From contig OZ246420.1 in NCBI GenBank assembly GCA_965231145.1, forward strand, positions 270,001 through 302,000: a DNA stretch of 32,000 nt, given 5' to 3'. This document shows, piece by piece, positions 1 through 16,971 of the stretch. The notes below the pieces were generated by a model. That model was not told the DNA's origin. It did no database searches and saw only the letters and a list, made by a program, of their open reading frames with translations. Source of the stretch: Candidatus Saccharimonadota bacterium (GTDB lineage: Bacteria; Patescibacteriota; Gracilibacteria; Absconditabacterales; Absconditicoccaceae). Numbering within the stretch: the first letter of the stretch is position 1; each line of letters starts with the position of its first letter. The position numbers were made by a program, and so were the translations under genes.

Positions 1-1
1 G

Positions 2-2650
2 TTAAATCTCAATGGTACTGCCAATACAAGTGTAGTGACGATACAGAACACTCTGCCAGCAAGCTATACAAAAGCTGCGTGGGTAAAATTTGGTACAACC
101 AATAATGGCTCATATAGTATTTTATCAAATGGAACAACACCTTCTTCAAGTCCAGATTTTTTTTGGGTCTCCACTGGCACATATGGATGATCAGCTATCC
201 TGGGTCTCAAGGCTGGTCCTATAACGGCTGGTAATAATGCAGTGTGGAGTACAGGAGCATTTCCTACAAATACTTGGACGCATGTCGCAGTTACTTTCGA
301 TGGTTCTACTAAACAGTACAGACTCTATCAAAGTGGTGTGTTAGTCGGCCTGGCTACCGGTACTTCTTCGCATGCAAGTACTGCTCAGGCTATTGGAGCT
401 TATGCGACTACTCCTTCTGCAAATACCTTTAATTGGACAGGACAGTTAGACGATGTTCAGTTGTGGGATAGTGTATTAACAGAGGCTCAGATAGGAGAGG
501 TTATGAATCAAAATAATGGCGATGGTGTCACTCCTGCTGTTCCTGATTTCCCTACATCACTAGAAGCTTTTGCATACGATGCCAATGCCGTTTATCTTAC
601 TTGGACTGGGGTGGGAGCTACACCAGTAGTAACAGACTATCAGATAGAGTATAAGATAAACACAGGTTCTACTTGGAACGTATTTTCTGATTCGGTGAGT
701 ACAAGTACGACAGGGCTTGTGACGTGATTGATCAACAATCTTGTCTATGATTTCAGAGTGTCGGCTATCAATGCTAGCGGAACGTGACTTCCAAGCACTG
801 TAGTGTCGTGAACTGCAGTACCCTTACCGGAGCCACAATTTCTTCTTCGTTTTGAAGACACATATGACGATGTTTCGTCTCATGCAAATCACGGTACTGC
901 TACAGGAGCAATAGCAATAGTTACTGATGGAATCCGTGGCAAGGTAGCTCGTTTTATTGGTTCTATAGGTAATTATGTGACTGTTAATGTTCCCTTGGGA
1001 ACGACAGGATTTACCAAGGCGGCATGGATATATATTCCAGTTGGTACAACTATGAGTGCTCGTAATATTATCTCGAATAGCCCGTATGGAGGAAGTAACT
1101 CCAGCTTTCTTTGGGTAGATAGTTCAAAATTACAAGTTGGTCATTTCTCAGGAGCCGCGGCTCCGATCTTTGCTGCTGACCCTGCTAATATGACTTCGGG
1201 ATCCTGGGCGCATGTTGCTGTAACTTATCAGCCAGCATTGAAAAAATATATGCTTTATAGAAATGGAGCGCTTGTTGCCAGTGGCTATTCTATTCAAAAT
1301 CCAAATCCAAGTACAGGAACTATTATCTGAGCATATAATACAACCGCTGTTACATTTTCTGGATTTATGGATGATGTTGAAATGTGGAATAGCGCATTAA
1401 CTCCTGCTCAGATTCAATTAGTCTATGAGGGTAATACGTGAGTTCCGGTAGGCGTACCAGTTGCTCCTGCTAATTTTACTGGTACTACAGCAAGTAGTAA
1501 TAAAGCTACGTTAATCTGGTCGTGAGTGTCAGCTATTTTACCGGTAACTGACTATCAAATAGAGTATAAAATCAGTACCTGATCAACGTGGACGGTCTTT
1601 TCTGATGGAGTAAATACAGGTACAAGTGTCGTTGTTACAGGTCTGACGACCAATCTCTCATATGATTTTAGAGTGGCAGCGGTCAATTCTGCTGGTACTG
1701 GAGCAGTGACAAATGTTGTATCTCTCTCGCCAATTGTTGTTTCTGTGCCTCAGCCTCAATTTCTCCTGGGATTTGAAGGAAATTATGAAGATATGTCTAT
1801 CAATAGAAACAATGGAATAGCGACATGAACGCTTCCCATTATTACCGATGGCACTCGTGGGAAAGTAGTCAATATCAATGGTGTTGTAGGTAATTATGTT
1901 TGATTAAATGCCTCTCTCAATGTTTCGGGATTTACCAAAGCTGCATGGGTATATGTGGTGCCTGGTACGAATGTGGCTGCGCGTAATATATTGTCCAATG
2001 GATCCTACGGAGGAAGTAGCTCCAATTTTCTTGTCTTAGATGCGGGGGTACTGAAGGTAGGTCACTTTTCATGAGCTTCTATTGCATATTATGCGTCAGA
2101 CTCAGTAGCTTTTGGTTCATGACAATGGATACATGTAGCTACTACTTATAATTCAACTACGAAAAAATATATGCTCTATAGAAATGGAGCGCTTATTGCG
2201 AGTGGAACTGCCGTGACTGATCCTTTTGCAAGTACAGGAACTACTGTCGGAGCCTTTAATATAACAGCTGTAACATGGTCTGGATATGTGGATAATGCAG
2301 AAATGTGGGATAGTACTCTTACTCCAACTCAAGTACAGGCTGTGTATGAAGGTAATCTATGAGTGCCCGAAGATGTGCCATATGTGCCGTTAAATTTCTA
2401 TTCTCCTTCGGTAAGTACAGGAGTTGTAAATCTTATATGGTCTTGAGTTACATCTCTATTACCGGTGACTGACTATCAAATAGAGTATAAAATCAGCACC
2501 TGATCAACGTGGACAGTCTTTTCTGATGGAGTAAGTGCCAATACGACATGAGCTGTCACATGATTGATCGATAACCTTTCTTATGATTTTAGAGTGGCTG
2601 CGGTCAACTCTGCATGAACAGGTAGCTATTCAACTGTCGCTACTGCTGCG
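2..2650 (+). repeat. Three tandem coding modules of about 920 nt (about 307 aa), each LamG-like lectin + FN3; the first is truncated by the window edge.
   Basis: PQFLLRFEDTYDD at about 833 and PQFLLGFEGNYED at about 1754 are 921 nt apart. Near-identical DNA ccggt[a/g]actgactatcaaatagagtataaaatcag[t/c]acctgatcaacgtggac occurs at 1541 and 2461. Confidence 0.8.
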
Positions 2651-5600
2651 CCATGATTGTTCATTTTTTATCATATTCTTTCTAATGGTCAGAGTATTTC
2701 AGTGGGATATAACTCGACTCCTGCTCTTTCTTTGAGACAACCATATAACAATCTTGCGTTATGAGGAGGAGATCCTTTTTCGTCGTGATGACTGTTGTGA
2801 CCGCTCATAGAGTCAGGAGTAGAAAGTCCATCTGCTGGATTGGCAAACGCTTTAAGAGCGTATAGCTGAACGTTATCTCGCCCGATAATTATAGGATTGC
2901 ATGGTTTATGAGCGACATATTATTCTGATATAAAAAAGTGAACAGCGCAATATGCGAAAGGTATGGCACAGGCAGCACTGAGTAAGTCTCTTGTAGAAGC
3001 CGCGTGAGGAGTCTATCGTCCTCTTGGTGTGACGATTGAGCATGGAGAGTTTGATGCTCGGGCCTGAAATTTTATGCTGTATGAATCATATTTGGTAGAG
3101 TGGCAAAGAGATTATCAATTTGATATAAACGCACTGATGGGAACAACGGGGGTTGTTTTTCCAATGTTCTTAGATCAGGAACAATCTTCTCGAACATGAT
3201 GAGTTGCTGTAGCGCAGCTTAATGCACATAGAAATAATCCAGGAAAAATATTTCTCGTAGGTCCGAAATATCAATATTCATATGGTAGTGATAATTTGCA
3301 TCTTACTAATACGTGATCGAAATTTCTCGGCGAAATGCTAGCGAAGGTTATGTATAAGGTGGCGATACAGTGACAAACATGGAATCCGCTTATGCCTACT
3401 TCAGTCATAAGAACATGAGGTAATGCTATCCTCGTGAGTTTTAATATCCCAGTTGGAACACTCAATATCGATACGTGATCGGTAGCAGCACGTCAAAATT
3501 ATGGATTTGAATACTATCAGAGCGGAGGTACAGCTACTACAATTAGTGGAGTAAGGCTTTTGAGTTGAAATACTATGGTAGAAATAACGTTGAGTGGGGG
3601 ATTCGATGGAACTGGCCAAAAACTGCGCTATGCGTGGACGTGCTGATTTCCTGTTGTTACAGGTCAATGGGGTCATTGTGCGAATGCAAGCTCATGACTT
3701 TTTGTCGGTGGTAACATTCGTGATAGTGATTCGAGTATTTCTCCATCAGTAGATGGAACGGGACTGCCTTTATATAACTGGCTCGTCACTTTTGATGAAA
3801 GTATCATCACTCCTAGTGTTCCAAATGCGCCTACAAATGTCACAGCAGTTGCGAGTAGCTGACAAGCTATCATTTCATTTAGCTGATCGACCAATAGTGG
3901 TGGTGCAGCTATCACTGAGTATGTAGTTGTTTCCTCTCCATGATCTATTACATTTACGGGAACAGGAAGTCCTATTACGGTAACATGACTGACGAACTGA
4001 GTGAGCTATACGTTCGCAGTAGCAGCGAAGAATTATGTGGGAACAGGAACCTTCAGTAGTGCGTCAAATCCTGTAGTGCCTGCAACAATACCAACCGCAC
4101 CGACGAACGTCGCGGCGACAGCAAGCAGCTGACAAGCAGTGGTGGAATTCAGCGGCTCATCAAGTAGTTGATGGTCTACTATTTTGTATTATATAGCAAC
4201 CTCATCACCGTGAAATATAAGCTTCACCGGAACATGAAGTCCGATCACGGTAACATGATTGACGAACGGAGTCTCATATACCTTCACTGTAGAGGCATAC
4301 AATGCAATAGGAACGTGAGAAATAAGTAGTCCATCAAATGCGGTAGTTCCAGCGACAGTGCCAAATGCGCCGATCAACGTCGCGGCGACAGCAAGTAGCT
4401 GACAAGCAGTGGTAGCATTTAGCGGTTCGACTAATAGTGGTTGATCAGAGATTTTGTATTATGTGGCAACATCAACTCCGTGAAACATATCATTTACGGG
4501 GACTGGAAGTCCCATCACGGTAACGTGACTGACCAATGGAGTGAGTTATACATTCACAGTAGCAGCGGTTAATGCTATTGGTGCCGGAGCAACAGGATTA
4601 TCAAATGCTGTTATTCCTGCAACAGTACCAGGTGCGCCAACAGCTGTAAGTGCAACATCAAGTAGTGGTCAGGCGATTGTCTCATTTACCGCTCCGGCAA
4701 ATAATGGCTGAACTGGAATACTCTATTATATAGCAACCTCATCACCGTGAAATATAAGCTTCACCGGAACATGAAGTCCGATCGCGGTAACGTGATTGAC
4801 GAACGGAGTGAGTTATACATTTACAGTAGAAGCGTATAACGCGGTATGAACAGGAGCGGCAAGTAGCGCATCAAACGCAGTGATACCAGCAACGGTGCCA
4901 ACAGCACCGACGAATGCAACAGCAGTAGCATGAAGCGGACAAGCTATTATTTCATTCAGCTGATCTACCAATAGTGGGGGCTCACAGATTCTTTATTACA
5001 TCGTTACTTCATCACCAGGAAGCATCTCGCTTACGGGAAGTGAAAGCCCGATAACTATTACAGGTTTGACCAATGGCGTGAGTTATACATTTACAGTAAT
5101 AGCGGTCAATGCTATAGGAACATCATCAGCAAGTAGTGCCTCAAATGCAGTAGTTCCTGTGACACTTCCGGGTGCGCCAACAGGGGTGAATGCAACATGA
5201 GGAAATGCACAAGCTACTATTTCATTTACTCCGCCAGCAAGTAATGGAGGCACTGGTATAGTAGAATATATCGTCACATCAAATCCGTGAAACATTATAT
5301 TTACGGGGACTGAAAGTCCCATCACGGTAACGTGATTGACCAATGGAGTGAGTTATACATTTACTGTAGTAGCAAGAAATAGAGTAGGTTCGTGAGATGC
5401 AAGCGCAGTATCAAATGCTGTTATTCCTGCGACTGTCGCAAATGCACCGACGAATGTGGCAGCGACATCGAGCAGCTGACAAGCTATTGTGTCGTTTAGC
5501 TGATCGACTGATAGCGGAGGATCTGCCATCTTGTATTACATTGTAACATCAAGCACAGGAAATATTGTTGTAACATGAGCAGATAGTCCTATTACAGTCG

Positions 5601-8209
5601 CGGGATTGACGAATGGAGTTACATATGCGTTCACTGTAAGTGCTTACAATGCAGTAGGAACAGGAACAGCAAGTAGTGCTTCAAATGACGTCATGCCTAT
5701 TACGGTGCCAACAGCTCCGATCAATGTCTCCGCGACATGAGGTAATCAGCAGGCGACGATCAGATTTACTTGATCGATAAATAACGGTGGAACCTGAATC
5801 TTGTATTATGTGGCAACATCAAACCCAGGAAACATATCATTTACCGGAACATGAAGTCCGATCACGGTAACGTGATTGACTAATGGAGTGAGCTATACAT
5901 TTACCGTCGCTGCAATAAATGGAGCGGGTACGGGAGTATTGAGCAGCTCATCAAATGCTGTAATTCCAGCAACAGTAGCAAACGCACCAACCAATATCAT
6001 AGCAACAGCAAGTAGCTGACAGGCGGTTGTGTCCTTTAGTGGATCGAGTGATGATGGATGATCGACAATCCTTTATTACGTAGCGACATCAAATCCAGGA
6101 AACATTAGTTTTACTGGTACATGAACTCCAATAATTATAGAATGATTGACCAATTGAGTGTCATATACGTTTACGGTAGCTGCAAGAAATGCAGTTGGAA
6201 CCGGAGCGGCGAGTGCTGCGTCAAGCAGCGTGACACCAGTAACGATGCCATGAGTACCATCAAACATCCAGGGAGCAGGAACGCTGGGGGAAGCAATATT
6301 TGATTTTGATGCACCAGTGTATAGCGGAGGATCTGCGTTACTGTATTATACGATTAGATCAAGCACATGACAGCTAGCAAAAACTGGAGTAAATAGTCCA
6401 ATGACACTAACATGACTCACCAATGGAGTAACATATACATTCTTTATCGCAGCAGTAAATGCGCAGTGAGAAGGAACAAGCGGGGCAGTAACATTTACTG
6501 TCACAACTCCAACCACTATTCCGAGTGAGCCTACGAATATCACAGCGATAGCATGAAGTTGATCAGCATTGCTCAGTTTCAGCACCCCGACTGATAATGG
6601 AGGATTACTTATTGATTATTACGCTATTAGATCATCTACAGGTGCTCTCATAAAGACAGGAGCAAATAGCCCAATAAGGATGACATGATTACAGAATGGA
6701 ATAAGTTATGCATTTAGCGTCTCAGCAGTAAATGGAGAGTGAGAAGGTCCTAGCGACACAGTAACGATAGAGCCGATTGCTCTTATTGTAAATGGTGGTA
6801 GCATAAGTGTTATACTATGATCTACAAGTATGATAGCAAATTGGACGACAACTATTAGAGCTTCAACACAAATCCAGTATGGTATTACGACATGATATAC
6901 ATTGCAGAATACGGAAAGAGACGTATCAAATCGTGTGACCTTACATAGTGGGAATATCCAATGATTGCTTACCTGTACAAAGTATAACTACAGAATTATT
7001 GGTTCAGATGATGAAGGATATCGCTATACAGGAACAAATAGCACATTCACCACGCTAGGCTGCCCAAACAATGCGCCAATTCTCACACAAGAAGAAGAGA
7101 TTGTAGAGGTGCCAGTAGGATGAGTGTTTACTATGACATCAACATTGGGAACGACGTTAGAGCTTATTATCCCTGAGGACGTAGTACTTATCATACCAAC
7201 CCTTCTCTTCCAATGAAAACAATTGGAAGCAAGTACCGCAATTGGTTCTCTTGGCAAGCCATCTAGTGAACTTATTCAGGTGTCAGCGCTCTATGATCTC
7301 CAAGCATATAGTGGGGATACAGATCGCATGACGACCTTTGAAACAGGTCTTACGATGACGTTGAGTTATCGTGATCAGGATGTGAGTTGAGTAGATGAAA
7401 GTACATTAAAAATCTACAGTCATGATGGAACAAGCTGGTCAGAACTTGATAACTGTGTGGTAGATACAGTCAATAAGAACGTTACATGTAATACATCACA
7501 TTTCTCAGCATTCTCCATCTTTGGAGTAGCACTAGGAGTAACGCCAAGTTCTCCATCAGTATGAGGAGGTGGTGGATGAGTGTATCTGACGAAGGATGTG
7601 TGTCCAAACGGAGATTACTCACTGAGCTACTATGACAAGACATGTAGTAGTGTATGACTACCAAACATTGAACAATGAATACTTCGCCTCGCGTTGAACA
7701 AATGTACAGCACAAAATGGCGAAGAGCAGCAATCATACTGCTTCAACCGCGCGATCGGCTCTACAACGATGCCTACATTCATGCAGGCACGTTACTACGA
7801 TCAGATCACGAGAGCGCAGCTGTCGAAGATCATGGGAGAGTTTGCAAAGAATATACTCTGAAAGACTCCAGATAAGAGTAAGCAATGTACGTTTACAGGA
7901 GAAGATCCGGACGGATTAGCAGCATATATGATCCAGGCATGTCAGTTAGGACTGATGAATACAAGCAGACCAAATGACATACTGACAAGAGGAGAGTATA
8001 TGACGGTGCTTTCAAGAATGTTATATGGTAAAACGCATGAACAGACGAATGTGGAAAGTGAAGAACATCCATTCTACGAGTATCATATGGAGCAGTTGTA
8101 TAAGGAATGATTGATCAATAGAAAAGAGCCACTAGTGAAAGCACAAAGACTTGTACCATTCTTGACGCTCTACAGACTCGCACAGAAGCTAGAAAAAGAA
8201 TCAAGATAA
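2..8209 (+). CDS. Giant secreted/cell-surface adhesin-like protein, 5'-partial (2,735 aa in window, table 25). Architecture: 3x [LamG/concanavalin-like lectin + FN3], SASA/SGNH-like esterase-like domain, 11 tandem FN3, two further beta-sandwich domains, Gly linker, Cys motif, SLH-like C-terminal repeats.
   Basis: I hand-translated frame 2 codon by codon from 2 to 8209. There is no TAA or TAG until TAA at 8207-8209, and roughly 95 in-frame TGA. The four plus-strand frame-2 ORFs in the supplied track (242, 977, 2171, 7928) all lie in this frame. LamG_3-like motifs are present (LDDVQLWDSVLTEAQI, MDDVEMWNSALTPAQI, VDNAEMWDSTLTPTQV), as are FN3 motifs (TDYQIEYK...TGL..N..YDFRV.A.N..GTG). A terminator follows immediately. 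Confidence 0.85.
2650..3810 (+). other. Domain of the giant protein: putative SASA/DUF303-type (SGNH-like) carbohydrate O-acetylesterase fold.
   Basis: The ordered motifs resemble the SASA family: HILSNGQSISVGY (GQSN-like nucleophile block), GVTIEHGEFDA (QGEsD-like block) and YGSDNLHLTNTGSKFLGEMLA (D..H block). This is motif-level recognition only. Confidence 0.4.
3821..6780 (+). repeat. Array of 11 tandem FN3 domain repeats inside the giant gene, period 267-273 nt (about 90 aa).
   Basis: Repeat starts (P-x-A-P-T-N-V) are at 3821, 4091, 4361, 4628, 4898, 5168, 5438, 5708, 5978, 6248 and 6521. The consensus is ..AP.NV.AT.SSGQA.VSFSGS.NSGGS.ILYY.ATS.PGNISFTGTGSPITVTGLTNGVSYTFTV.A.NA.GTG..S..SN.V.P. 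Confidence 0.9.
7562..8209 (+). other. C-terminal anchoring module of the giant protein: GGGGGG linker, CPNGDYSLSYYDKTC motif, then SLH-like repeats.
   Basis: The translation reads ...HFSAFSIFGV..VGGGGGGVYLTKDVCPNGDYSLSYYDKTC...YCFNRAIGSTTMPTFMQARYYDQITRAQLSKIMGEFAKNILG...AAYMIQACQLGLMNTSRPNDILTRGEYMTVLSRMLYG...EQLYKEGLI. The (a..Gl......itR.e...m..r) pattern resembles S-layer-homology-type wall-binding repeats. Confidence 0.45.
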
Positions 8210-8212
8210 TAG

Positions 8213-8238
8213 AAAAACTCCCATCTAGGGAGTTTTTT
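8213..8238. terminator. Bidirectional rho-independent terminator shared by the convergent giant gene and the CHC2 gene.
   Basis: The sequence aaaaactccc-atcta-gggagtttttt forms a perfect stem (actccc/gggagt) flanked by an A-run and a T-run. The TAG stop of the minus-strand gene (8225-8227) lies in the loop. Confidence 0.8.
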
Positions 8239-8878
8239 CTTCAGAAGGAAAATTTAATTTGAGCTGATTAGGATTTGACGGCGGTGGAGGATCGAGTTGA
8301 TCTTGTCGGTATTTCCTTGTGTCTCCTAGTACCATAGAAAGAAATGTGGGTAGCGTATGAGATCGTCCACATCCAAAACATTTGACCATCCCCATGGTTT
8401 TACTGATACAACAGGAAGCTGTCTTCTCTTTGTGATGAGGACAAAGCACGTACAAGTTAGAATATGTTTCTCTGGCGATCGCATTTCATAGTCTCTCTCT
8501 CAGAAACGTGGTAATAAACTCACGGTCATAACCTGTACGCATGTCTCTATTGCGATTTTCCATGCTATGTAATCGCGCTCTCGTCTTCTTTTTTACTCCT
8601 TTATTTTTACCCGTAGGTTTTCTTCCCACACTCAAAGCTCTCGCAATTTCATTTTTTATCCTTAGTTGAATGATTTCTTTACTTCTTTTCACCCATGTAT
8701 CATACATTTCTTGATCAACCGATAAAGGAGCATCCTCATACAGAGTAAATGCGTCTTCCGGATTGTTTTTATATATCTCATATGAGTCAATTGCAGCTCT
8801 TTCCATGTTTTTTATAGAAAAACAGGAGGGCAAACCCTCCCGATAATCATAATGATCTAAAGAACATGTCTTCGTCAC
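8225..8878 (-). CDS. Hypothetical protein with a C-terminal CHC2 (DnaG-type) zinc finger, 217 aa. It is two track ORFs joined through TGA=Gly at 8486-8488.
   Basis: LCPHHKEKTASCCISKTMGMVKCFGCGRSH matches the primase zinc-finger pattern CP.H.EKT.S...(n)CFGCG. ORFs 8486..8878 and 8225..8455 are in the same frame and separated only by a TGA. The start (GTG at 8878 or an internal ATG) is uncertain. Confidence 0.6.
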
Positions 8879-8920
8879 ATTGGCCCAATTATAGAAAAAG
8901 TCAACACTGATGCAAGCGCA

Positions 8921-8943
8921 GAAAAACCCGGCTTTAGCCGGGC
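8921..8943 (-). terminator. Rho-independent terminator downstream of rlmN.
   Basis: The minus strand reads gcccggctaaagccgggtttttct (stem cccggc/gccggg, loop of 4, T-run). Confidence 0.75.
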
Positions 8944-8949
8944 TTCTGT

Positions 8950-8986
8950 ATTATATTGAGAATTTCGAATTCAACATTTCGAATTA
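8950..8986 (-). repeat. Stop-codon-abutting 37-nt conserved motif, copy A (after rlmN).
   Basis: The minus strand reads TAA TTCGAAAT GTTGAA TTCGAAAT TCTCAATATAAT. The TAA is the rlmN stop, and the terminator hairpin follows 6 nt later. Confidence 0.8.
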
Positions 8987-10165
8987 TTTTTTAAGTACTC
9001 TCAGGTTCTTCCCCGTCTCTTTAATCTCTTCACGATGTTCATATACTTTTTCATATCCCAGCTGACCGCAGGCACCTTTGACTCAGCGTCCGAGTGTATC
9101 TCTGACGGTTACCGTCACTCATCCTTTTTCAAGGATCTCTTTAAATCTCATGATCTGGTTTCTGCTTGGCTCTTCGAGGTCGATAGCGGGGTTTTCGTTG
9201 TATGGGATAAGATTGATATGTGAGTGAGCAGGTCTTGCTTTGAGGAGGTCTATGAGCTGATATGCGAGTTCTGGCTGGTCAGTCTTTCCCTTGATCATAA
9301 TGTACTCATAGAACACGCTCTTGCCTGTCTTTGTCGTATATTCATCGATCTGTGCCATGAGCTTGTCTAACGTGTACATCTTCGTGATCGTTGGGATAAG
9401 CTCGGAGCGGAGCTCCTGATTTGGTGCGTGGAGTGACAATGCAAGCATGACATCAAGATTGTCATCGATCATCTTTTGTATACCAGGAATAATTCCGCTG
9501 GTAGAGATGGTTACGTGACGACGTGAAAGTGAAAATCCGTTTTGGTCGAGGAGATAGTGTACAGTAGCTTTTACATTGTCATAGTTGAGGAGTGGTTCTC
9601 CCATACCCATGAAGACGATATTTCTGATCATGTACCATGAGTTGTCTTCTTTTTTGCCGAGCTTCTTTTTGAGGTATGCGTTTGCATAGATAACCTGTCC
9701 GATGATTGTTTGGACATCGAGGTTTTTGAGGAGTCCAAGTTTCCCCGTTACGCAGAAGATACATCCAACTGAACATCCTACTTGTGACGAGATACATAAG
9801 GTGAGACGGTTGAGTTTTTTACCGTCAACGAGGGTTGTGAACCCTTTCTTATATTCTTCTGATCCTTCGATAATTTCATGATAGTGGAACATAATTACTG
9901 ATTCGATCACGTTGCCGTCAGGGAGCTTGAAAAGAAACTTCGTTGTGTCTTCAGACTCCTGCATTTCCTGGAGCTCAAAAGGCACAATAGTGAAATTGTC
10001 CGACAATGAATCTCTCAGGTCTTTGCTGAGGGCAGTCATCTCTTGGAAATCAGTCACAGAGTTTTTAAAGATTTCGTGAAAAATCTGTTTCAGACGAAAT
10101 GGCTGAACCTTATGCAGAACTCTTCGTTCTTCTAATTTCTCTTTATCAAAAATAGAGGCTTTCAT
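8984..10165 (-). CDS. rlmN: 23S rRNA/tRNA adenine-C2 methyltransferase RlmN (radical SAM), 393 aa.
   Basis: Radical-SAM CxxxCxxC is present in GCSVGCIFCVTG, with MGMGEPLLNY also present. Reading through TGA at 9119 and 9083 recovers the conserved C-terminus VTVRDTLGRGVKGACGQLGYE (family pattern vR...G.di.AACGQL). The true stop is TAA at 8984-8986. Confidence 0.85.
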
Positions 10166-10205
10166 AGCCTCTACTATAGTGATTTTGCTCTAAAAAACAA
10201 GCTTG

Positions 10206-11231
10206 TTACAGCTGTTTTTCTATCTCTGCGTTGATCTCAGCAGCTAGGTCTTTGACTTGTGTATTGAAGTCCGGCTGCACAGGAACTTTAGCTCCGGCAG
10301 CGTACATGTGGCCGCCACCGTTGAAATGGAGTGCAACTTTCTGGACATCGATTCTTCTGCCGTCAGCCATATAGCCTGATCTGAACGATAATCCAACCTT
10401 GTCATCTGAACCTTTTCTGATGATAGCAATGACTGGTATAGCTTTCAAAGGTCTCAGATAACTAAAGATGATGGCATCTACTTCGTCTTTATCCATTCAT
10501 CGGCTTAGTATTTCTTCTGTGGTATATCGAGCATAGCAGATATGTTTTTCGCGAGTCATTCTCTGTATCATGAGCTTTGATACTTCGATAGAAGATCGGT
10601 CGCTGTTATTGAAAATATGTTGGATGACCCAATCTTTCTTTGCGCCGTATTCTATTAACCCGACTGCATTTTTCATCGTTCTGACAGAGTCTTTTTCATA
10701 CTGAAAGTTTCCCGTATCAGTCACGAGTCAGATATACCGGTAGGTCGCAATTGTCTCATCTATGAACTCTGGTCGACATTGTATACTTATCTCATAGAGG
10801 AGCTCGCAGCAACTCGAGCTGTCGACATCTTTCAGGAGAACCACCGGTTCAAAGACATCGTCTCCGATATGATGATCGATGATGAGTTTTTGTTTAGCAG
10901 TAAAATACTCCTCATGTCCTTCCGTGATCTTGTTGATGCGTCTATAGCCAGTAAAGTCTACAAATACTATCAGATCCCACGCATCGCTATAGTCAAACTC
11001 TGTACTAATTTTTTCTAGCCCCGGTATAAAATTATATGATCTTCATGGTTTTGTTGTAGTAAAATATCAGATTTCTTTCCCAAGTTTCTCTAGCAGTGTC
11101 CCAAATCCTAGCATCGAACCTATAGCATCACCATCAACGCTTTCGTGGCCAAAAATAGCGATCTTATTCGCATTGCTTATTTTCGTCTTACATTGATCGA
11201 GGAGTTCACTTGAAAACATGGTTATTTTCAT
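10206..11231 (-). CDS. nrnA: DHH/DHHA1 family phosphoesterase (NrnA-like oligoribonuclease / pAp phosphatase), about 341 aa.
   Basis: The family motifs are present: IAIFGHESVDGDAIGS, IIDHH, LVTDTGNFQY and DHHA1 GGGHMYAAGA. Four track ORF pieces share one frame and are joined by TGA at 10497, 10728, about 11043 and 11067. The start could be any of several ATGs at 11219-11261. Confidence 0.75.
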
Positions 11232-11305
11232 CAAATATAAAGAAGCAGCTAGATTATACATGATAACATTCTATATGCTATCATCTACTTGCTAACTGCT
11301 ATATG

Positions 11306-13780
11306 CTATTTGGTAATCAGTCCCTTTTCTACTAAGAACTTTGCAAGATCTCCGAAGAGTCTACCTGCAGTATATTCACCGTACTGATTTGTTCTTGGTC
11401 TACGAACGTGGATGACGACAATATATTTCAAATCATCCCTTGTAACCATGCCTACGAATGAACCATCTGTCCATCCATTTCCGTTCATATACTTTCCTTT
11501 GAAGGCAATCTGAGATGTTCCTGTTTTTCCACCTATCGTATAACCTGGGATCCCGTACATTTTTGTAAGCCCTCCATAGACGTCCTGAAAGAGAACTTCT
11601 CTGATTTTCTCACTCGTTTCTGGTTTGATAATCTGGTTTCCAACCTTAGGAGTATTCACAATATATTGCTTCGTCACGGGATCATAAATCTTATCTATGA
11701 TCGTTGGCTTTACGATATATCCGCCATTTACCAGCGCGCTATAACCTGCAGCAATCTGTACTGGTGTCGCAAGCATACCTTGTCCGAACGCATTATTATA
11801 GAATTGAGAAAGCGGGATGTTGTTTGGGCCTTCGATCTTACCCTGTGTTTCACCGGCAAGCTCTATACCTGTCTGCTTACCAAATCCAAACTTATCCATA
11901 AAGTTATAGAATACTTCTTTTCCTATTTTCTGAGCGATTCTTACCATTCCCACGTTACATGAGTAGACTACTGCATTTATCAGCGGATGAAATCCGCCGC
12001 AGTGTTTTTTGTCTGCGTTATTAATAAGCTGAACCACGCCATTTCCAATATCGAGTTTCAACTGATTGTTATCTTGGTAGTAGTCATAAAGACTTACTTC
12101 ATCGCTATCGAGACCAAAGGCCATCGTAAATGGTTTGATGATCGAACCTGGTTCGTATGGCTGCGCAATGTTTTTGTCGATAAATACCTGAGCTCCCATC
12201 TTATTTGCAGCGACATATTTTTGTAGTGATGGATCTTTTCTCTGGTCATATGTTGTCGGTATGATTTTTTCTCCCGAGAGGAAGAAGACTGGAATATCTC
12301 TATAGGTGTCGTCGTTTATAATAGTACTTTCAGTAAGGCTTAATGGCTTCAGTTTATATGCTTCCTGATAGTTGTTTGGATTAAAGGTTGGATAGTTCGC
12401 CGATGCTATGATCTTACCATTGTGAGGATCCATGATGATGGTAGATATTTCGTCAGCGTTGAATATCTTTGTATAGTATTCTTGTAGTTGCTCAAGCTTC
12501 CTCTGGATGAGAGGATCTATCGTAAGATAGACATCACGTCCATCGATAGGCTGTGTGATAGCAATATCATTTGATGCGATTTGTCCGAGGAGCGGCGTAG
12601 AAAGTCATTGTATTTCTCCTGCTTTTCCTTTGAGAAGCTCATCGAAATATTGTTCTATGCCATAGAGAGCATAGCCATCTTTTGCGTAAAACCCCAATAT
12701 GTTTGCTGCGAAGTGATTGTAAGGGTAGTATCTTGTTTCGTATTTTTCCAATCCAAGACCATGCAGTAGGGGAATGCCTTTAACGCAGTTTTCTCCTGCA
12801 TTTTCACACGTGTTTTTCACGTTATAGTTAGCATTGATGAGGTCATTGATCTTTTTCGCGAGCGTAGCATTGAGCCCATCAGCGAGCTTTACGTATCTGT
12901 TTTCCTGTTGGACAAATAAGTTAGAGATCTGTTTTTCTGAATATGCATAACTGTATTTCATGAGGATCGAGTTGATCTCTTTTTTCGCATTGACGACGTT
13001 GATTGCTTTAGGTGGTACGACATAGACGTAGTGTTTGCTTTCGATGCTTACGTATGGCAAATTCATCCCTGAGAGGTCTGCAAGAAACTGATCATTTTCA
13101 AAGTAACCGAGATAGTTTTTTTCCTTCACTCCAATGGAAATCTTATTGTCCAGGGTCGCTTTGATCATGTTCATGGCTTGATCTCCTGAGAAGGCATTGA
13201 TGATTTTCGTCCTTTCCTGGTCGATGATGCTATTTTCTTCGACGATCTGTTGCTGCATAAGATCAATTCCTGTTTGTGACCGATAGTTCTCTCCAATCTC
13301 TTGTGTATAGAAGACCGTCTTTGGAGCAGGGAGGATCTGTAGCTGAGCAAAGCGTTCAATGTTTTCTATACAACCAAGTTTATCTACATCTACTAGTCCA
13401 TTTTTTTCACACAGGTGCGCATAGATAATCGGAGAGAGGATATCTATAACTCTTGGTTTGTCCCAGACAAACTTCGGATCGATAAAGACGTTGTACATTT
13501 CCATGTTTTGGGTGAGAGCGATGGGTTTATTGCTTGCATCAGTAAGATAGATATTTCCTCTCTTCGCTTTGATGTTTGTTTTATTGAAATGCTGTGCAGT
13601 CATCACATCGCTATAGTTTTTCGCCTGTATGATCTGCAGATAGAATAGTCTGATGGTAAGTACAAGAAAAAGAAAAGAAAGGATCCATAAAAGCTGAGCT
13701 TCTCTGGTGATTTTTCTTTTACCAAGACCGAATTTTTCTAGTATCTTATGAGCGAGCTTATTTTTTTTCTCTAATAGCAT
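11306..13780 (-). CDS. Class B penicillin-binding protein (FtsI/PBP2-type peptidoglycan transpeptidase), 824 aa.
   Basis: An N-terminal TM helix (LLWILSFLFLVLTIRLFYL) and RGNIYLTD are present. The transpeptidase motifs are SIIK (SxxK), SCN (SxN) and KTGT. ORFs 12605..13780 and 11306..12433 are in frame and joined through TGA at 12605-12607 (…GEIQ-G-LSTPLLG…DVYLTIDPLIQ). Confidence 0.85.
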
Positions 13781-13897
13781 TTGTGAGCGATTTAGTGATA
13801 TGGTGAAGTTATATGAAAATAGTCGGGGTTTACAAATAATTTCCTCAATAATAGAGGAGTAAAATCAAAAATTATGATCTGATATAATGTATGTTTT

Positions 13898-14094
13898 ACT
13901 CCTGCCGGAGGGGCGTTACTTTTTAGCATATCCCTAAAAAGTAACCAAAAAGGTCTAGCCGATTGTAGCACTCTAATATGTGTAACAATCAAGCATTGAC
14001 TACGAAAGCATTTCGTCCTCACGAACTCAATGCTTTACGACAAACTACTTATCCATACACGACTCCGGAGACGTGGGGTACAATCGGCGGGAGT
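13898..14094. ncRNA. Candidate structured RNA element, copy 1 (unclassified; paralogous to 26208..26398).
   Basis: Closing stem ACTCCTG/CGGGAGT (13898-13904 with 14088-14094). Perfect 12-bp hairpin GTTACTTTTTAG/CTAAAAAGTAAC (13915-13945). 9-bp stem CCGATTGTA/TACAATCGG (13959-67 with 14079-87). Conserved core hairpin AAGCATTGA..ACGAAAgcaTTTCGT..TCAATGCTT (13991-14035). The strand is undetermined; an extended -10 (TGATATAAT at 13880-13888) favours plus. Confidence 0.5.
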
Positions 14095-15342: not shown

Positions 15343-16971
15343 ATGTATCGCCCATGAGGATTTCCCGAATTTAATCCACAGCAACAGGCTGTGTTCGATG
15401 CTATAGTAGAGACGCTTAACGATGTTTTCAGACAATATCACTATGAACACATCTGGACTCCAGCAGTAGAGTCTGTAGATATTTTGAAAAAAGGAGGAGA
15501 TATTATTGATAAGCAAGTGTATGGTTTATATGGTCTTGCTCAGGGAGTAGAAGATGTGAAAGACTATGCGCTTCACTTTGATCTTACGATCCCTCTCGCA
15601 AGATATATTCTCGATCATAGGAATGATCTGTCATTTCCATTTCGCAGATACCAGATGCAGCCCGTATGGCGTGGTGAAAGAACGAAAAGAGGAAGATTCA
15701 AAGAATTCCGGCAGTTTGATGTGGACGTAGTCCGGCCTTCGGAAATGAATATTGGAACGTGGTATGACACCGAAACTGTGGCTGTACTTTCGCGCGCGAT
15801 GGAAGCAGTATGTAAAAAGTTTTCTATTACGATCGATTCAGTTTTGAAGATGTCGCATATCGGATTGACGAAGGCGATGCTGGAAAGCTTTGGTGTGAAT
15901 GAGGAGACGAGAGATAAGATTCTTTGATTGCTTGATGGTTACTATAAGATAACGCATGAAGAGTTTACAGAAAAACTCAATGCATTGGCTCCACAAGAGG
16001 TTGCGGCGCTTATCCAAAAAGTTATTGCTACTAAAGATCTCTCGCTTATGGCAGATTATGAACACTATGATGCTATGAGAAATATTTTGACGGGACTCGA
16101 TGAACTCAATATTAACTATGAGTATGATATCTGTATCGTGAGAGGACATAACTACTATAAGTGAATGGTTTGTGAGTGGTTTGATAAGTCAGACATTGCA
16201 CTTGGTTCGCTTGCTGCTGGAGGAAGATATGATAACATCACCGACTTTATCGATCCGAAGCAGTCATTTAGTGGAGTGGGAACGAGCCTTGGAAGATTTG
16301 TCTATCTCGCGATTGAGAAGATTGGTCTTATACCTCCATGTGAGTCATATCTGTTTGTGAACTTTGAAGATACAAACAAAGACATTATCGCGCTTTATGG
16401 AAAATTCCTTTCTCAGTGAAAAGTATGCGAGATGTATCCAACAGCTGCGAAGCTTGCAAAACAGTTTGAATATGCTGATAAAAAAGGGCTTTCACATGTT
16501 GTTATCTTAGGAGGATCAGAGAAAGAAAAACATGTATTCAAATTAAAAAACTTACAAATAGGAGAAGAAAGAGAATATGCTATGGTCGACTGTTATGGAG
16601 CAATAGTTTTTTGTAATCATAAGGTTCTGCTCGTAAAAAATCATCAAGGAGGACGGGGGTTTCCAAAGTGAAAATGAGAGAAAGGGGAAAGTATTGATGA
16701 AAGTATTCTCAGAGAGTTAGAGGAAGAAACAGGTATTAATAAAGTAAAATTACTTTCGAGTCATCTCTCTCAGACAAGTTATTTTTATGATAATGGAGAG
16801 TTGATATTCAAAACTATTCAGTATAAAGTTTTTGAAACACCTAATGATAAAGTCTCTCTACAAAAAGAAGAACTTGCTGAATATAAGTGGGCTACTCGTG
16901 AAGAGGCATTAAAACTTCTGCCGCAAGATATGCATCATCTTATTGATCCAGTAAATAATTATTTTCTTTAA
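15343..16971 (+). CDS. hisS: Histidyl-tRNA synthetase fused to a C-terminal Nudix hydrolase domain, 542 aa.
   Basis: Class II aaRS/HisRS motifs are present: FRRYQMQPVWRGERTKRGRFKEFRQFDVDV, HNYYK-G-MVCEWF, AAGGRYD, plus an anticodon-binding domain (VVILGGSEKEK). The same frame continues without a stop into a perfect Nudix box G-KGEKG-E-SIDESIL-RELEEETGI. Five track ORFs share one frame and are joined by TGA=Gly. The N-terminus MYRPGGFPEF is recovered through TGA at 15355. Confidence 0.85.

What the first reader, a model, noticed from the sequence alone, without database searches (positions are those of the whole stretch)
2..8209. Giant multi-domain surface protein hidden from standard-code ORF calling
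A single frame-2 reading frame runs from the window edge to 8209 (more than 2,735 aa, N-terminus missing). It combines three lectin-type LamG modules, 14+ FN3-type domains, a putative glycan esterase domain and a wall-anchor-like C-terminus. The supplied ORF track shows only four short plus-strand pieces in this frame, plus many long antisense shadow ORFs. Published Gracilibacteria and SR1 biology describes these organisms as epibionts or predators of other bacteria. A protein combining lectin, enzyme, spacer stalk and anchor is therefore a plausible host-attachment or host-surface-remodelling device. The specific domain order does not match anything I can name.
Basis: partly seen in the sequence, partly recalled or inferred. 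Interest (0 to 1): 0.75.

Follow-up and report, generated by a model that had tools for sequence, protein, structure and literature searches.

The report
Wall-anchored giant surface esterase of SR1
This is a real 2,817-residue secreted surface protein of a TGA-recoded SR1/Absconditabacteria bacterium, carrying sugar-binding-type heads and a phage-tail-fibre-like sugar deacetylase on a long stalk anchored to its own cell wall; it is a good candidate host-contact device, but it belongs to a kind of protein already reported for this group.

Summary
Frame 2 is open from base 2 to a TAA at 8207-8209. It contains 96 in-frame TGA codons and no TAA or TAG. TGA columns align with Gly in the paralogous repeats, which fits code 25.

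An independent assembly supplies the missing start: 82 more residues with a Sec signal peptide, giving 2,817 aa in total.

The architecture, from N to C terminus:
- signal peptide;
- three LamG-FN3 pairs;
- a 387-aa SGNH/SASA-type O-acetylesterase with its β-sandwich;
- eleven FN3 domains and one FN3-like domain;
- a β-domain, a Gly6 linker and a Cys-loop;
- a divergent triple SLH module.

The "wall anchor" is therefore SLH-type, not sortase-type. The esterase keeps the GQS, HGE-D and D-x-x-H motifs. Its strongest family match is a phage tail-fibre family (PHROG 4201, E 2e-68), and its closest fold is a cyanophage tailspike.

GyrA places the organism in Absconditabacteria/SR1. The SLH-like module recurs on many recoded surface proteins with different passenger domains.

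Standard-code metagenome loci encode comparable giants: FN3 arrays, the same esterase module, and a C-terminal SLH or PG_binding_1 domain. Published work already reports SLH proteins and giant FN3/ConA surface proteins in Absconditicoccaceae.

Verdict: a new member of a known kind. A role in host contact is plausible but untested.

The parts
2..8209 (+). Giant ORF (code 25), C-terminal 2,735 of 2,817 codons plus the stop. The first 82 codons lie upstream of the window (L005 9515-9760) and encode a Sec signal peptide, MKISKPSTFFGRASLGVYCFQIFFALLITVMPSMTEKAYA|AV.
2..511 (+). LamG-1 (Laminin_G_3 / concanavalin-A-like). It becomes complete when the upstream 82 aa are added.
   Evidence: Pfam PF13385 E 9e-18 on the reconstructed N-terminus, profile positions 11-150 of 151
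551..811 (+). FN3-1
   Evidence: Pfam fn3
836..1441 (+). LamG-2
   Evidence: Pfam PF13385, best stretch aa 323-472 covering profile 4-151 of 151
1463..1720 (+). FN3-2
   Evidence: Pfam fn3, aa 488-573
1754..2359 (+). LamG-3, a paralogue of LamG-2
   Evidence: third Laminin_G_3 stretch; coordinates set by the paralogous motif PQFLLGFEG
2375..2656 (+). FN3-3
   Evidence: third fn3 stretch in the N-terminal third; coordinates
2657..3817 (+). SGNH/SASA-type carbohydrate O-acetylesterase module with a C-terminal β-sandwich (387 aa). Putative catalytic residues: Ser898 (nt 2693-2695, GQS motif), Gly1015 (H-G-E-x-D motif), Asp1097 and His1100 (nt 3290-3301, D-x-x-H motif).
   Evidence: 84 homologues, many carrying PF03629. 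Motifs invariant or nearly invariant across the family and present here. PHROG 4201 tail fibre, E 2e-68. PDB sequence hit to 9vyh tailspike. Proxy model and Foldseek searches.
3818..6787 (+). Tandem array of 11 FN3 domains (about 90 aa each), the presumed stalk
   Evidence: Pfam fn3, 11 stretches, E 2.8e-85. Tandem Repeats Finder period 270. Units 55-73% identical at the DNA level.
6821..7051 (+). FN3-like domain of the purple-acid-phosphatase N-terminal type
   Evidence: Pfam PF16656 E 7.6e-5, below the gathering score. The same domain type passes the cut-off in homologous giants L049, L042 and L045; in L049 and L042 it lies right after the esterase.
7067..7561 (+). β-rich domain of unknown family that precedes the anchor cassette. 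It is shared with P0085.
   Evidence: No Pfam or PHROG hit. Faint TIGR04213 PGF-pre-PGF match, E 0.0068, below cut-off. P0085 matches 52% of the 380-residue query that starts at this domain, E 2.9e-20; its own sequence shows the matching layout of β-domain, Gly run, Cys-loops and SLH-like module.
7562..7579 (+). Gly6 linker
   Evidence: Sequence. Comparable G/S-rich linkers precede the module in many related loci.
7601..7645 (+). Cys-loop motif CPNGDYSLSYYDKTC
   Evidence: The motif CPxGDxSxSxYDxxC recurs in 1-3 copies before the SLH-like module in SR1 loci L009, L017, L031 and L034.
7715..8206 (+). Divergent triple SLH-like cell-wall-binding module, with TRAE-type motifs ITRAQ (aa 2603), LTRGE (aa 2662) and VKAQR (aa 2713)
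   Evidence: Profile hits to SLH S-layer proteins SbsB and Sap. Pfam SLH in 5 of 5 members, best E 1.5e-11, with the window copy at 14.4 bits. Homologous modules score above the gathering score. The A3 profile hits the canonical SLH region of L049. 26 recoded loci carry the module.
8213..8237 (.). Palindromic hairpin flanked by an A-run and a T-run, 4 nt after the double stop TAA-TAG. It looks like a bidirectional terminator shared with the convergent gene at 8225-8806(-).
   Evidence: consensus match only

Best explanation
What it is. This is one intact gene of an SR1/Absconditabacteria bacterium that reads TGA as glycine. Its product is a 2,817-aa Sec-exported protein that stays attached to the producer's own cell wall.

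What is shown:
- the signal peptide;
- the domain identities;
- the conserved esterase catalytic motifs;
- homology of the C-terminal module to SLH domains;
- reuse of that module as a terminal cassette on many other recoded surface proteins.

What is inferred, in three steps:
1. The C-terminal triple SLH module binds non-covalently to a peptidoglycan-associated polymer.
2. The 11-12 tandem FN3 domains form a stalk of roughly 40 nm or more. Through it the wall-bound C-terminus holds the N-terminal working end away from the cell.
3. The working end consists of three LamG (concanavalin-A-like) lectin-type heads and an SGNH/SASA O-acetylesterase. The heads bind a surface polysaccharide of another cell, and the esterase strips its O-acetyl groups.

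Closest functional analogy. The esterase module is of the type that phage tail fibres and tailspikes use as receptor-binding, receptor-modifying enzymes. The most likely role is therefore recognition and editing of host/prey envelope glycans (LPS O-antigen, capsule or EPS) during epibiotic attachment.
For: Gene reality and genetic code.

Export: the signal peptide is found upstream, and Logan's own gene call starts at the same ATG.

LamG and FN3: Pfam hits above the gathering score.

Esterase:
- The GQS, H-G-E-x-D and D-x-x-H motifs are invariant or nearly invariant across 47 family members and are retained here.
- Homologues carry PF03629 SASA.
- The module hits PHROG 4201 'tail fiber protein' at E 2e-68 over residues 5-384.
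- A model of a 50%-identical homologue (pLDDT 86.5) matches the cyanophage Pan3 tailspike (E 7e-23), mammalian sialate O-acetylesterase, XAC1771/CE20 acetylesterases and NanS.
- The same model matches Vi-phage tailspikes and phage SGNH esterases.

Anchor:
- 26 recoded loci carry the module at the extreme C-terminus, or sometimes the N-terminus, behind a G/S linker and with varied passenger domains.
- Homologous giant esterase proteins end in canonical SLH x3 or in PG_binding_1. The C-terminal position is thus filled by interchangeable wall-binding domains.

Lineage and lifestyle:
- The best named GyrA hits are Ca. Absconditicoccus praedator, Absconditabacterales and SR1.
- Cultured relatives are epibiotic predators or parasites with fibrous surfaces, giant FN3/ConA surface proteins and 8-10 SLH proteins per genome (PMC8080830; PMC13059738).
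- Phage SGNH receptor-binding proteins are experimentally shown to be deacetylases needed for adsorption (PMC13123978).
Against: - No expression, localisation, enzymatic or binding data exist for this protein.
- The window's esterase block gets no Pfam hit on its own.
- The window's SLH copy is the most divergent of its family: 14.4 bits against a 20.8-bit cut-off. Its third motif has Lys in place of the key Arg.
- Whether the organism makes a pyruvylated or otherwise anionic wall polymer could not be checked.
- Comparable architectures occur in standard-code organisms of unknown lifestyle, so the design is not specific to predators.
- The substrate could equally be an environmental glycan or the cell's own glycan.
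- Window 4217-8062 lacks independent assembly support.
Confidence: 0.55

Rival explanations
1. Wall-anchored carbohydrate-active enzyme used for nutrient scavenging. In this reading the protein works like the SLH-anchored xylanases and esterases of Gram-positive polymer degraders. It deacetylates environmental or detrital polysaccharides (acetylated xylan, EPS, sialoglycans) so that other enzymes or neighbouring organisms can use them. It has no role in host recognition.
For: Fold relatives include acetylxylan-type and carbohydrate acetylesterases (1zmb, 7kmm, 9ega). Many homologues are secreted enzymes of Bacteroidota and Myxococcota, some with T9SS tails, and one is labelled as a xylanase. 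Similar giants exist in standard-code organisms.
Against: No glycoside hydrolase or sugar-uptake genes lie nearby; the neighbours are housekeeping genes. Published Absconditabacteria have minimal carbohydrate metabolism and live off host cells. A stalk of 12 FN3 domains plus triple lectin heads is more elaborate than a scavenging esterase needs. The strongest family match is to phage tail fibres, not to CAZyme families.
Confidence: 0.2
2. Structural envelope component. In this reading the protein is part of the fibrous or S-layer-like coat, or a cell-cell cohesion fibre that holds stacked epibiont cells together. The esterase edits the producer's own wall glycans, for example O-acetylated peptidoglycan or secondary wall polymer.
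For: SLH modules classically anchor S-layer proteins. L013 has the S-layer-like layout, with an N-terminal SLH module followed by a large β-rich body. Vampirococcus shows a fibrous surface and stacked cells.
Against: The catalytic module sits about 1,300-1,460 residues and 12 β-sandwich domains away from the anchor module. That is poor geometry for acting on the cell's own wall. Nothing suggests a lattice-forming domain. The LamG heads and the tail-fibre-type esterase point outward towards a foreign ligand.
Confidence: 0.15
3. Non-functional or artefactual locus. In this reading the long frame is a decaying pseudogene, or partly an assembly construct of FN3 repeats, and no full-length protein is made.
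For: Window 4217-8062 could not be confirmed in independent assemblies. Short-read contigs break at 4216 and 8063. The share of TGA among Gly codons is unusually high at 31%.
Against: There are 2,817 codons without a TAA, TAG or frameshift (about 1e-52 by chance). Every segment has coherent domain homology. The catalytic motifs are intact. The repeats have diverged to 55-73% DNA identity while protein motifs are conserved. All three strain differences are synonymous. Signal peptide, double stop and terminator-like hairpin are all in place.
Confidence: 0.04

Closest known systems
Giant surface proteins and SLH-domain proteins of Absconditicoccaceae (Vampirococcus lugosii, Absconditicoccus praedator, Strigamonas methylophilicida)
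   Same: Same lineage by GyrA and the same TGA recoding. Members are >1,500 aa, carry a signal peptide, and contain FN3 and concanavalin-A-type domains. SLH proteins are present in several copies per genome, and the authors propose them as host-contact machinery (PMC8080830; PMC13059738).
   Different: Those papers list domains only at the genome-survey level. In the texts I searched, none describes an embedded SGNH/SASA esterase, a tail-fibre relationship, or the combination of LamG heads, esterase, FN3 stalk and SLH in one polypeptide.
Phage tail-fibre / tailspike SGNH esterases (PHROG 4201; cyanopodophage Pan3 tailspike 9vyh; G7C gp63.1; Vi-phage tailspikes; Klebsiella prophage SGNH tail fibres)
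   Same: The whole 387-aa esterase plus β-sandwich module is homologous to PHROG 4201 (E 2e-68) and gives a PDB sequence hit to 9vyh. The folds also match (E 7e-23 against PDB; 1e-30 to 1e-32 against BFVD). The GQS and D-x-x-H motifs align. In phages this module type deacetylates host LPS or capsule as the adsorption step.
   Different: Only the distal part of the PHROG profile (positions 276-674 of 676) is matched; the virion-attachment part is absent. The gene sits among chromosomal housekeeping genes and is not in a prophage. The module is embedded in a Sec-exported, wall-anchored protein. The closest relatives, at about 50% identity, lie in loci whose flanking genes give no phage structural matches.
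Uncharacterised giant proteins with FN3 arrays, this esterase module and a wall-binding C-terminus, from standard-code metagenome loci (L049, L042, L044, L045)
   Same: They are 1.6-2.9 k aa long and have multiple FN3 domains. The same esterase module is 42-50% identical. A PAP-N-type FN3 domain is present. The C-terminus is a wall-binding domain: canonical SLH x3 in L049 and PG_binding_1 in the others.
   Different: They use the standard genetic code. They have no LamG heads; instead they carry Gly_rich_2, IG_AIR9 or SCAB-Ig domains. In L049 and L042 the PAP-N-type FN3 follows the esterase directly. The organisms are unknown, and none of these proteins is characterised.
SLH-anchored surface proteins and enzymes of Firmicutes (Sap and SbsB S-layer proteins; SpaA and SlhA of Paenibacillus alvei)
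   Same: They share three tandem SLH-type motifs with TRAE-like motifs. The window has TRAQ and TRGE, and SpaA itself has TRAE/TVEE/TRAQ. Profile-level homology is detectable. The module occupies a terminal position in a secreted protein.
   Different: The module here is very divergent: the window copy falls below the Pfam cut-off, and its third motif has KAQ. A lineage-specific Cys-loop and a Gly linker precede it. The wall ligand in SR1 is unknown.
SASA / CE6 / CE20-type carbohydrate O-acetylesterases (SIAE, XAC1771, PpCE20, NanS, At4g34215)
   Same: They share the SGNH-like α/β fold with an accessory β-sandwich and the Ser-His-Asp motif blocks.
   Different: Sequence identity is only 10-16%. 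The window sequence gets no direct Pfam SASA hit. The substrate is unknown.

Membership tests
Genetic code 25 (SR1/Gracilibacteria, TGA = Gly) | In-frame TGA in conserved genes, at positions that are Gly in homologues or paralogues | tested here: met
   96 TGA codons in the ORF face Gly 155 times against Trp 2 times in paralogous FN3 columns. Most neighbouring genes, including RlmN, HisRS, DnaB, MurD and DnaE, contain in-frame TGA.
Genetic code 25 (SR1/Gracilibacteria, TGA = Gly) | tRNA-Gly with anticodon UCA, and loss of release factor 2 | not testable with these tools
   No tRNA gene lies in the 32-kb window. The rest of the genome is not available.
Absconditabacteria / SR1 lineage | Housekeeping markers closest to named SR1/Absconditabacteria genomes | tested here: met
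   The best named GyrA hits are Ca. Absconditicoccus praedator (72%), Absconditabacterales, Absconditicoccaceae and SR1 (68-70%). A single hit is labelled 'Gracilibacteria'. This rests on one marker only; no phylogeny was built.
Laminin_G_3 (concanavalin-A-like lectin/glucanase) | Full-length match to PF13385 above the gathering score | tested here: met
   Three stretches, E 1.8e-51, 174.7 bits against a 27.6-bit cut-off. The first copy is complete once the upstream residues are added. Sugar binding itself was not tested.
Fibronectin type III | Match to PF00041 above the gathering score; tandem β-sandwich repeats | tested here: met
   3 + 11 stretches, E 6e-23 and 2.8e-85. The array has a 270-nt period.
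SGNH/SASA carbohydrate O-acetylesterase | Block I nucleophile Ser in a G-x-S motif, oxyanion Gly block, and block V D-x-x-H | tested here: met
   GQS (Ser898), H-G-E-x-D (Gly1015) and D-N-L-H (Asp1097/His1100) are present in the window protein. They are invariant or nearly invariant in 47- and 8-member alignments.
SGNH/SASA carbohydrate O-acetylesterase | Direct match of the window sequence to Pfam PF03629 (SASA) | tested here: not met
   No Pfam hit even at E <= 10. Membership is transitive: many homologues at 34-42% identity carry PF03629, and L044 scores 27 bits against a 24.8-bit cut-off.
SGNH/SASA carbohydrate O-acetylesterase | α/β SGNH-like fold with an accessory β-sandwich | tested here: met
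   Tested by proxy only. The model of P0001 (50% identical, pLDDT 86.5) matches SIAE 8f9p (3e-16), XAC1771 7kmm (3e-15), CE20 9ega, 2apj, 1zmb and NanS 3pt5. The window sequence itself could not be modelled.
SGNH/SASA carbohydrate O-acetylesterase | Esterase activity on O-acetylated glycans | not testable with these tools
   This needs a biochemical assay.
Phage tail fibre / tailspike (PHROG 4201) | Match to the family profile | tested here: met
   E 2e-68, 232.7 bits; residues 5-384 against profile positions 276-674 of 676.
Phage tail fibre / tailspike (PHROG 4201) | N-terminal virion-attachment part of the profile, and a phage or prophage gene context | tested here: not met
   Profile positions 1-275 are not matched. 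The neighbours are RlmN, PBP2, HisRS, DnaB, MurD, GyrA and DnaE. It shares a module with tail fibres but is not itself a tail fibre.
SLH (S-layer homology) wall-binding domain | Three tandem ~55-aa SLH motifs at a protein terminus | tested here: met
   Three motifs are aligned across 5 members. The module is terminal in 26 recoded loci.
SLH (S-layer homology) wall-binding domain | Pfam PF00395 match above the gathering score | tested here: inconclusive
   The window copy scores 14.4 bits against 20.8 (E 0.037). Homologous modules score 21.2-30.8 bits, with a best E of 1.5e-11. The module profile hits SbsB and Sap in PDB (E 1.4e-3 to 3.9e-3). It also hits the canonical SLH region of L049 (E 1.4e-9).
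SLH (S-layer homology) wall-binding domain | TRAE motif with the ligand-binding Arg (SLH-Arg43), and a GIIxG-type motif | tested here: inconclusive
   The Arg is kept in motifs 1 (ITRAQ) and 2 (LTRGE). Motif 3 has VKAQR. SpaA tolerates TRAE/TVEE/TRAQ. The GIIxG equivalents are degenerate: 'AIGST', 'LGLMN' and 'EGLIN'.
SLH (S-layer homology) wall-binding domain | Three-pronged spindle fold, and binding to a pyruvylated or anionic wall polymer (CsaB present) | not tested
The genome outside the window is unavailable, and binding requires an experiment.
Sortase-dependent LPXTG wall anchor | C-terminal LPXTG, followed by a hydrophobic segment and a basic tail | tested here: not met
   The C-terminus is hydrophilic (...LYRLAQKLEKESR) and has no LPXTG or hydrophobic tail (sequence).

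The most novel reading that the evidence does not exclude
SR1/Absconditabacteria epibiotic predators recognise prey in the way phages recognise hosts. A phage-tail-fibre-type O-acetylesterase and lectin heads, held on a long FN3 stalk rooted in the predator's wall by a lineage-specific SLH cassette, bind and deacetylate the prey's O-antigen or capsule. Under this reading the protein acts as a host-range determinant, and its receptor-binding module has been exchanged with phages.
Probability: 0.3. Interest if true: 0.65.

Novelty: new member of a known kind. Interest (0 to 1): 0.4.

Why it matters
Very few CPR/Patescibacteria host-recognition molecules are known beyond type IV pili. This gene gives a concrete, testable candidate with a defined enzymatic module (catalytic Ser898, Asp1097 and His1100), lectin-type heads and a defined anchor.

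If the esterase acts on host envelope glycans, a predatory bacterium would be linked to the receptor-modifying strategy of phage tailspikes. That could help predict the hosts of uncultured SR1 bacteria.

There is also a practical lesson. In public short-read assemblies the gene is shredded into table-11 fragments of 161 aa or less. Public homologues of its anchor look mistranslated with table 4. Surface proteomes of recoded lineages are therefore systematically under-annotated. The SLH-like cassette (alignment A3) is a handy marker for retrieving them.

Tried and rejected
1. Exact-match search for the first 40 nt of the window in the GTDB genome collection found nothing.

I modelled the 50%-identical homologue P0001 instead.

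3. Pfam and NCBIfam searches on the esterase block alone gave no hits, even at E 10 for Pfam.

4. The β-domain at aa 2356-2520 got only a sub-threshold PGF-pre-PGF hint. It is left unassigned.

5. I rejected a prophage or phage origin for the locus. The neighbours are housekeeping genes. Genes flanking the closest homologues P0001 and P0003 give no phage structural matches.

6. I rejected a sortase/LPXTG anchor on the C-terminal sequence.

7. I rejected table 4 (TGA = Trp) on the basis.

8. A single-protein metagenome scan found no close orthologue. The 47-sequence alignment was too diverse to search with. An 8-sequence alignment worked.

9. Four attempts to find independent assemblies covering window 4217-8062 through table-11 ORFs found nothing on record.

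10. No tRNA or Rfam element lies in the window.

11. Searches for the run accessions and for 'Absconditabacteria + SGNH/acetylesterase' in the paper library found nothing relevant.

12. The antisense 'shadow' ORFs (for example 4598-6337 on the minus strand under table 25) are treated as by-products of the repeat composition. The sense frame carries strong domain matches, and the strain differences are synonymous in it.

Full report
**Observation**

Frame 2 of window 2..8209 holds 2,735 sense codons under table 25. It contains 96 in-frame TGA codons and no TAA or TAG until the TAA at 8207-8209, which is immediately followed by a TAG. At this base composition, a TAA/TAG-free run of that length has a probability of about 1e-52.

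The meaning of TGA can be tested inside the gene itself. When the paralogous FN3 units are aligned, TGA columns face Gly 155 times and Trp twice. So TGA is Gly (code 25), not Trp (code 4).

Most other credible genes in the window also contain in-frame TGA codons. These include RlmN, a DHH phosphoesterase, PBP2, HisRS-NUDIX, DnaB, MurD and DnaE. Under table 11 the giant gene breaks into small plus-strand fragments and antisense ORFs. Public Logan assemblies record exactly those fragments as genes.

**N-terminus and sequence quality**

The table-11 fragment at 242-727 led to Logan contigs from four sequencing runs. Two of them (L005, L006) are identical to window 1-4216. Two others (L037, L038) are identical to window 8063-13933 and 8081-13752.

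In L005 the frame continues 264 nt upstream of the window. The first in-frame ATG adds 82 residues, and Logan's own gene call starts at that same ATG. The sequence begins MKISKPSTFFGRASLGVYCFQIFFALLITVMPSMTEKAYA|AVPSP. This has a basic n-region, a hydrophobic core and an A-x-A site, which makes it a Sec signal peptide. The full protein is therefore 2,817 aa.

A slightly different strain (L007) differs at 3 of 1,189 shared bases, and all three changes are synonymous in frame 2.

The stretch 4217-8062 could not be confirmed independently. However, the FN3 units are only 55-73% identical at the DNA level and share no exact repeat longer than about 60 bp. A repeat-driven misassembly is therefore unlikely.

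A palindromic, terminator-like hairpin lies 4 nt after the stop codons.

**Architecture**

Pfam gives three Laminin_G_3 domains, each followed by an fn3 domain. It also gives an array of eleven fn3 domains and one further FN3-like domain of the purple-acid-phosphatase N-terminal type.

Between the third FN3 and the array lies a 387-aa block with no Pfam hit. This block nevertheless has 84 homologues in the protein collection, many of which carry PF03629 (SASA, sialate/carbohydrate O-acetylesterase).

Across the family, three motifs are invariant or nearly invariant, and the window protein keeps all of them:
- G-Q-S, with Ser898 as the likely nucleophile;
- H-G-E-x-D, with Gly1015;
- D-x-x-H, with Asp1097 and His1100.

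The best family match of the block is PHROG 4201 'tail fiber protein', at E 2e-68 over its whole length. The only PDB sequence hit is the cyanopodophage Pan3 tailspike 9vyh.

The structure tool rejects code-25 translations. I therefore modelled P0001, a 50%-identical FN3-plus-esterase homologue (pLDDT 86.5). Its closest solved folds are listed below:
- the Pan3 tailspike (E 7e-23);
- mammalian sialate O-acetylesterases;
- XAC1771 and CE20 acetylesterases;
- the phage N4 tail complex;
- At4g34215, a Clostridium acetylxylan esterase, and NanS.

Among predicted viral structures, the model matches three unnamed proteins at E 1e-30 to 1e-32. It also matches Vi-phage tailspikes and several phage SGNH esterases.

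**The C-terminus**

After the FN3 array comes an unassigned β-domain, then a Gly6 linker, then a Cys-loop (CPNGDYSLSYYDKTC), then a final module of about 165 aa.

Four database homologues share this tail. Three of them are visibly rich in Trp where Gly is expected, which suggests table-4 mistranslation of recoded genomes.

An alignment of the module (A3) shows three SLH-like motifs. The evidence that it is SLH-related is as follows:
- All five members hit Pfam SLH, with a best E of 1.5e-11. The window copy alone scores 14.4 bits, below the 20.8-bit cut-off.
- The profile's top five PDB hits are the SLH-bearing S-layer proteins SbsB and Sap.
- A genome scan found the module in 26 loci of Absconditabacterales, SR1 (including RAAC1_SR1_1), 'Peribacteria' and Patescibacteria MAGs, plus two weak Firmicutes hits.
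- All 26 ORFs carry 10-64 in-frame TGA codons.

The loci I read in full begin with a signal peptide and carry different passenger domains: DUF285/BspA-type LRRs, Listeria-Bacteroides repeats, LamG, and Fib_succ_major. In most of the 26 ORFs the module sits at the extreme C-terminus, often behind a G/S-rich linker; in five it lies near the N-terminus. When those ORFs are translated directly from DNA with table 25, SLH scores exceed the Pfam cut-off at 21.2-30.8 bits.

The window protein keeps the key Arg in two TRAE-type motifs (ITRAQ and LTRGE) and has VKAQR in the third. The well-studied SpaA SLH trimer itself has TRAE/TVEE/TRAQ (PMC6081394).

There is no LPXTG signal. The 'wall-anchor-like C-terminus' is thus a divergent, lineage-typical SLH cassette.

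**Relatives with the same design**

A metagenome scan with an 8-sequence alignment of the esterase module found standard-code loci that encode very large proteins built on the same plan:

| Locus | Length | Features | C-terminus |
|---|---|---|---|
| L049 | 2,637 aa | FN3 x7, Ig-like domains, esterase module, PAP-N FN3 | canonical SLH x3 (E 2e-33) |
| L042 | at least 2,922 aa | FN3 arrays, esterase module | PG_binding_1 |
| L044 | 1,649 aa | FN3 arrays, esterase module | PG_binding_1 |
| L045 | 1,671 aa | FN3 arrays, esterase module | PG_binding_1 |

The A3 profile also hits L049's SLH region (E 1.4e-9). This ties the divergent SR1 module to canonical SLH.

Interchangeable wall-binding domains in the same terminal position are strong comparative support for the anchor reading. 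They also show that the overall design is not unique to this organism.

**Organism and literature**

The best named GyrA hits are Ca. Absconditicoccus praedator (72%), Absconditabacterales, Absconditicoccaceae and SR1. Unnamed relatives reach 86-93%.

Published work reports the following:
- Vampirococcus lugosii is an epibiotic predator with a fibrous surface. Its ten longest proteins (1,392-4,163 aa) are membrane/surface proteins with fibronectin and other adhesion domains (PMC8080830).
- Strigamonas methylophilicida, like A. praedator, has 8-10 SLH-domain proteins. It also has surface-targeted proteins over 1,500 aa with FN3 and concanavalin-A domains, and sits less than about 20 nm from its host (PMC13059738).
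- Phage SGNH tail fibres are experimentally shown to be esterases that deacetylate LPS or capsule. For phage G7C this step is essential for infection (PMC13123978).

I found no paper that links Absconditabacteria or Patescibacteria to SGNH esterases or acetylesterases.

**Mechanism**

Shown: the signal peptide; the domain identities; intact catalytic motifs; SLH homology; and modular reuse of the anchor cassette.

Inferred: the protein is exported by Sec. Its C-terminal SLH trimer binds a peptidoglycan-associated polymer. The 12 FN3-type domains form a stalk. From general knowledge that one FN3 domain is about 3.5-4 nm long, this gives roughly 40 nm or more, enough to span the reported epibiont-host gap.

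The stalk holds the esterase and the three LamG heads out towards a foreign cell. There, lectin-type binding and O-deacetylation of surface polysaccharide would mediate recognition, adhesion or envelope conditioning.

I give this 0.55. The rivals are listed below:
- a scavenging, wall-anchored CAZyme (0.2);
- a structural or self-wall-editing coat protein (0.15);
- a non-functional or artefactual locus (0.04).

**Verdict**

The functional interpretation is plausible but untested.

The protein is a new member of a known kind: the giant SLH/FN3/ConA surface proteins of Absconditabacteria. More broadly, it belongs with wall-anchored, FN3-stalked esterases that also occur in standard-code organisms.

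Its most interesting feature is the phage-tail-fibre-type receptor-modifying esterase. Interest: 0.4.

Noticed in passing
window 2-8206 compared with the other genes in the window: TGA supplies 31% of Gly codons in the giant gene (96 of 314). In the named housekeeping genes of the window it supplies only 0-16% (GyrA 0 of 55, PBP2 1 of 63), although three small or membrane ORFs reach 21-29%. This skew is why the gene is especially invisible to standard-code gene callers. The cause is unknown; expression level, translational accuracy and gene age are all possible.
   Followed up: partly
window 7601-7645; also L009, L017 (three copies), L031 (RAAC1_SR1_1) and L034: A conserved Cys-loop motif, CPxGDxSxSxYDxxC, lies between the Gly-rich linker and the SLH-like module in several SR1 surface proteins. 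It occurs in one to three tandem copies. Its function is unknown.
   Followed up: partly
window 8225-8806 (-): A stand-alone 193-aa protein carries a DnaG-type CHC2 zinc ribbon (PF01807, E 2.4e-8) but no primase catalytic domain. It is convergent with the giant gene and shares the hairpin at 8213-8237.
   Followed up: no
window 15343-16971 (+): A histidyl-tRNA synthetase is fused to a C-terminal NUDIX hydrolase domain in a single ORF with 6 in-frame TGA codons.
   Followed up: no
proteins P0085, P0087, P0088 (public database entries): Homologues of the anchor cassette have Trp runs where Gly is expected, for example 'NWWGGGWGWW'. This suggests that the source records were translated with table 4 instead of table 25.
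   Followed up: partly
L049 5528-13441; L042 1-8769; L044 7736-12685; L045 428-5443: Standard-code metagenome contigs encode uncharacterised giant proteins of 1.6-2.9 k aa. Each has FN3 arrays, the same tail-fibre-type esterase module, and a C-terminal SLH x3 or PG_binding_1 domain. The organisms are unknown.
   Followed up: partly
L013 9860-13021: A recoded protein has the SLH-like module at the N-terminus directly after its signal peptide. A β-rich body of about 870 aa with no Pfam match follows. This is the layout of a classical S-layer protein, making it a candidate S-layer subunit of a recoded Patescibacteria-type lineage; the source record is labelled only 'uncultured bacterium'.
   Followed up: no
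window 4216 and 8063 (contig ends of L005/L006 and L037/L038): Independent short-read assemblies of the same organism, from runs ERR4405439, ERR4405440 and ERR4405441, all break inside this gene. L005 and L006 end at window 4216; L037 and L038 end at 8063 and 8081. The repeats are only 55-73% identical, so the reason for the breaks was not determined; coverage and strain variation are possible.
   Followed up: partly
window 19426-20361 (+) and 20385-21236 (+): Two adjacent ORFs each have an N-terminal hydrophobic segment. The second has a weak, sub-threshold SLT_2 transglycosylase match (E 9e-4), and the first has no Pfam hit. They may be further envelope proteins.
   Followed up: no
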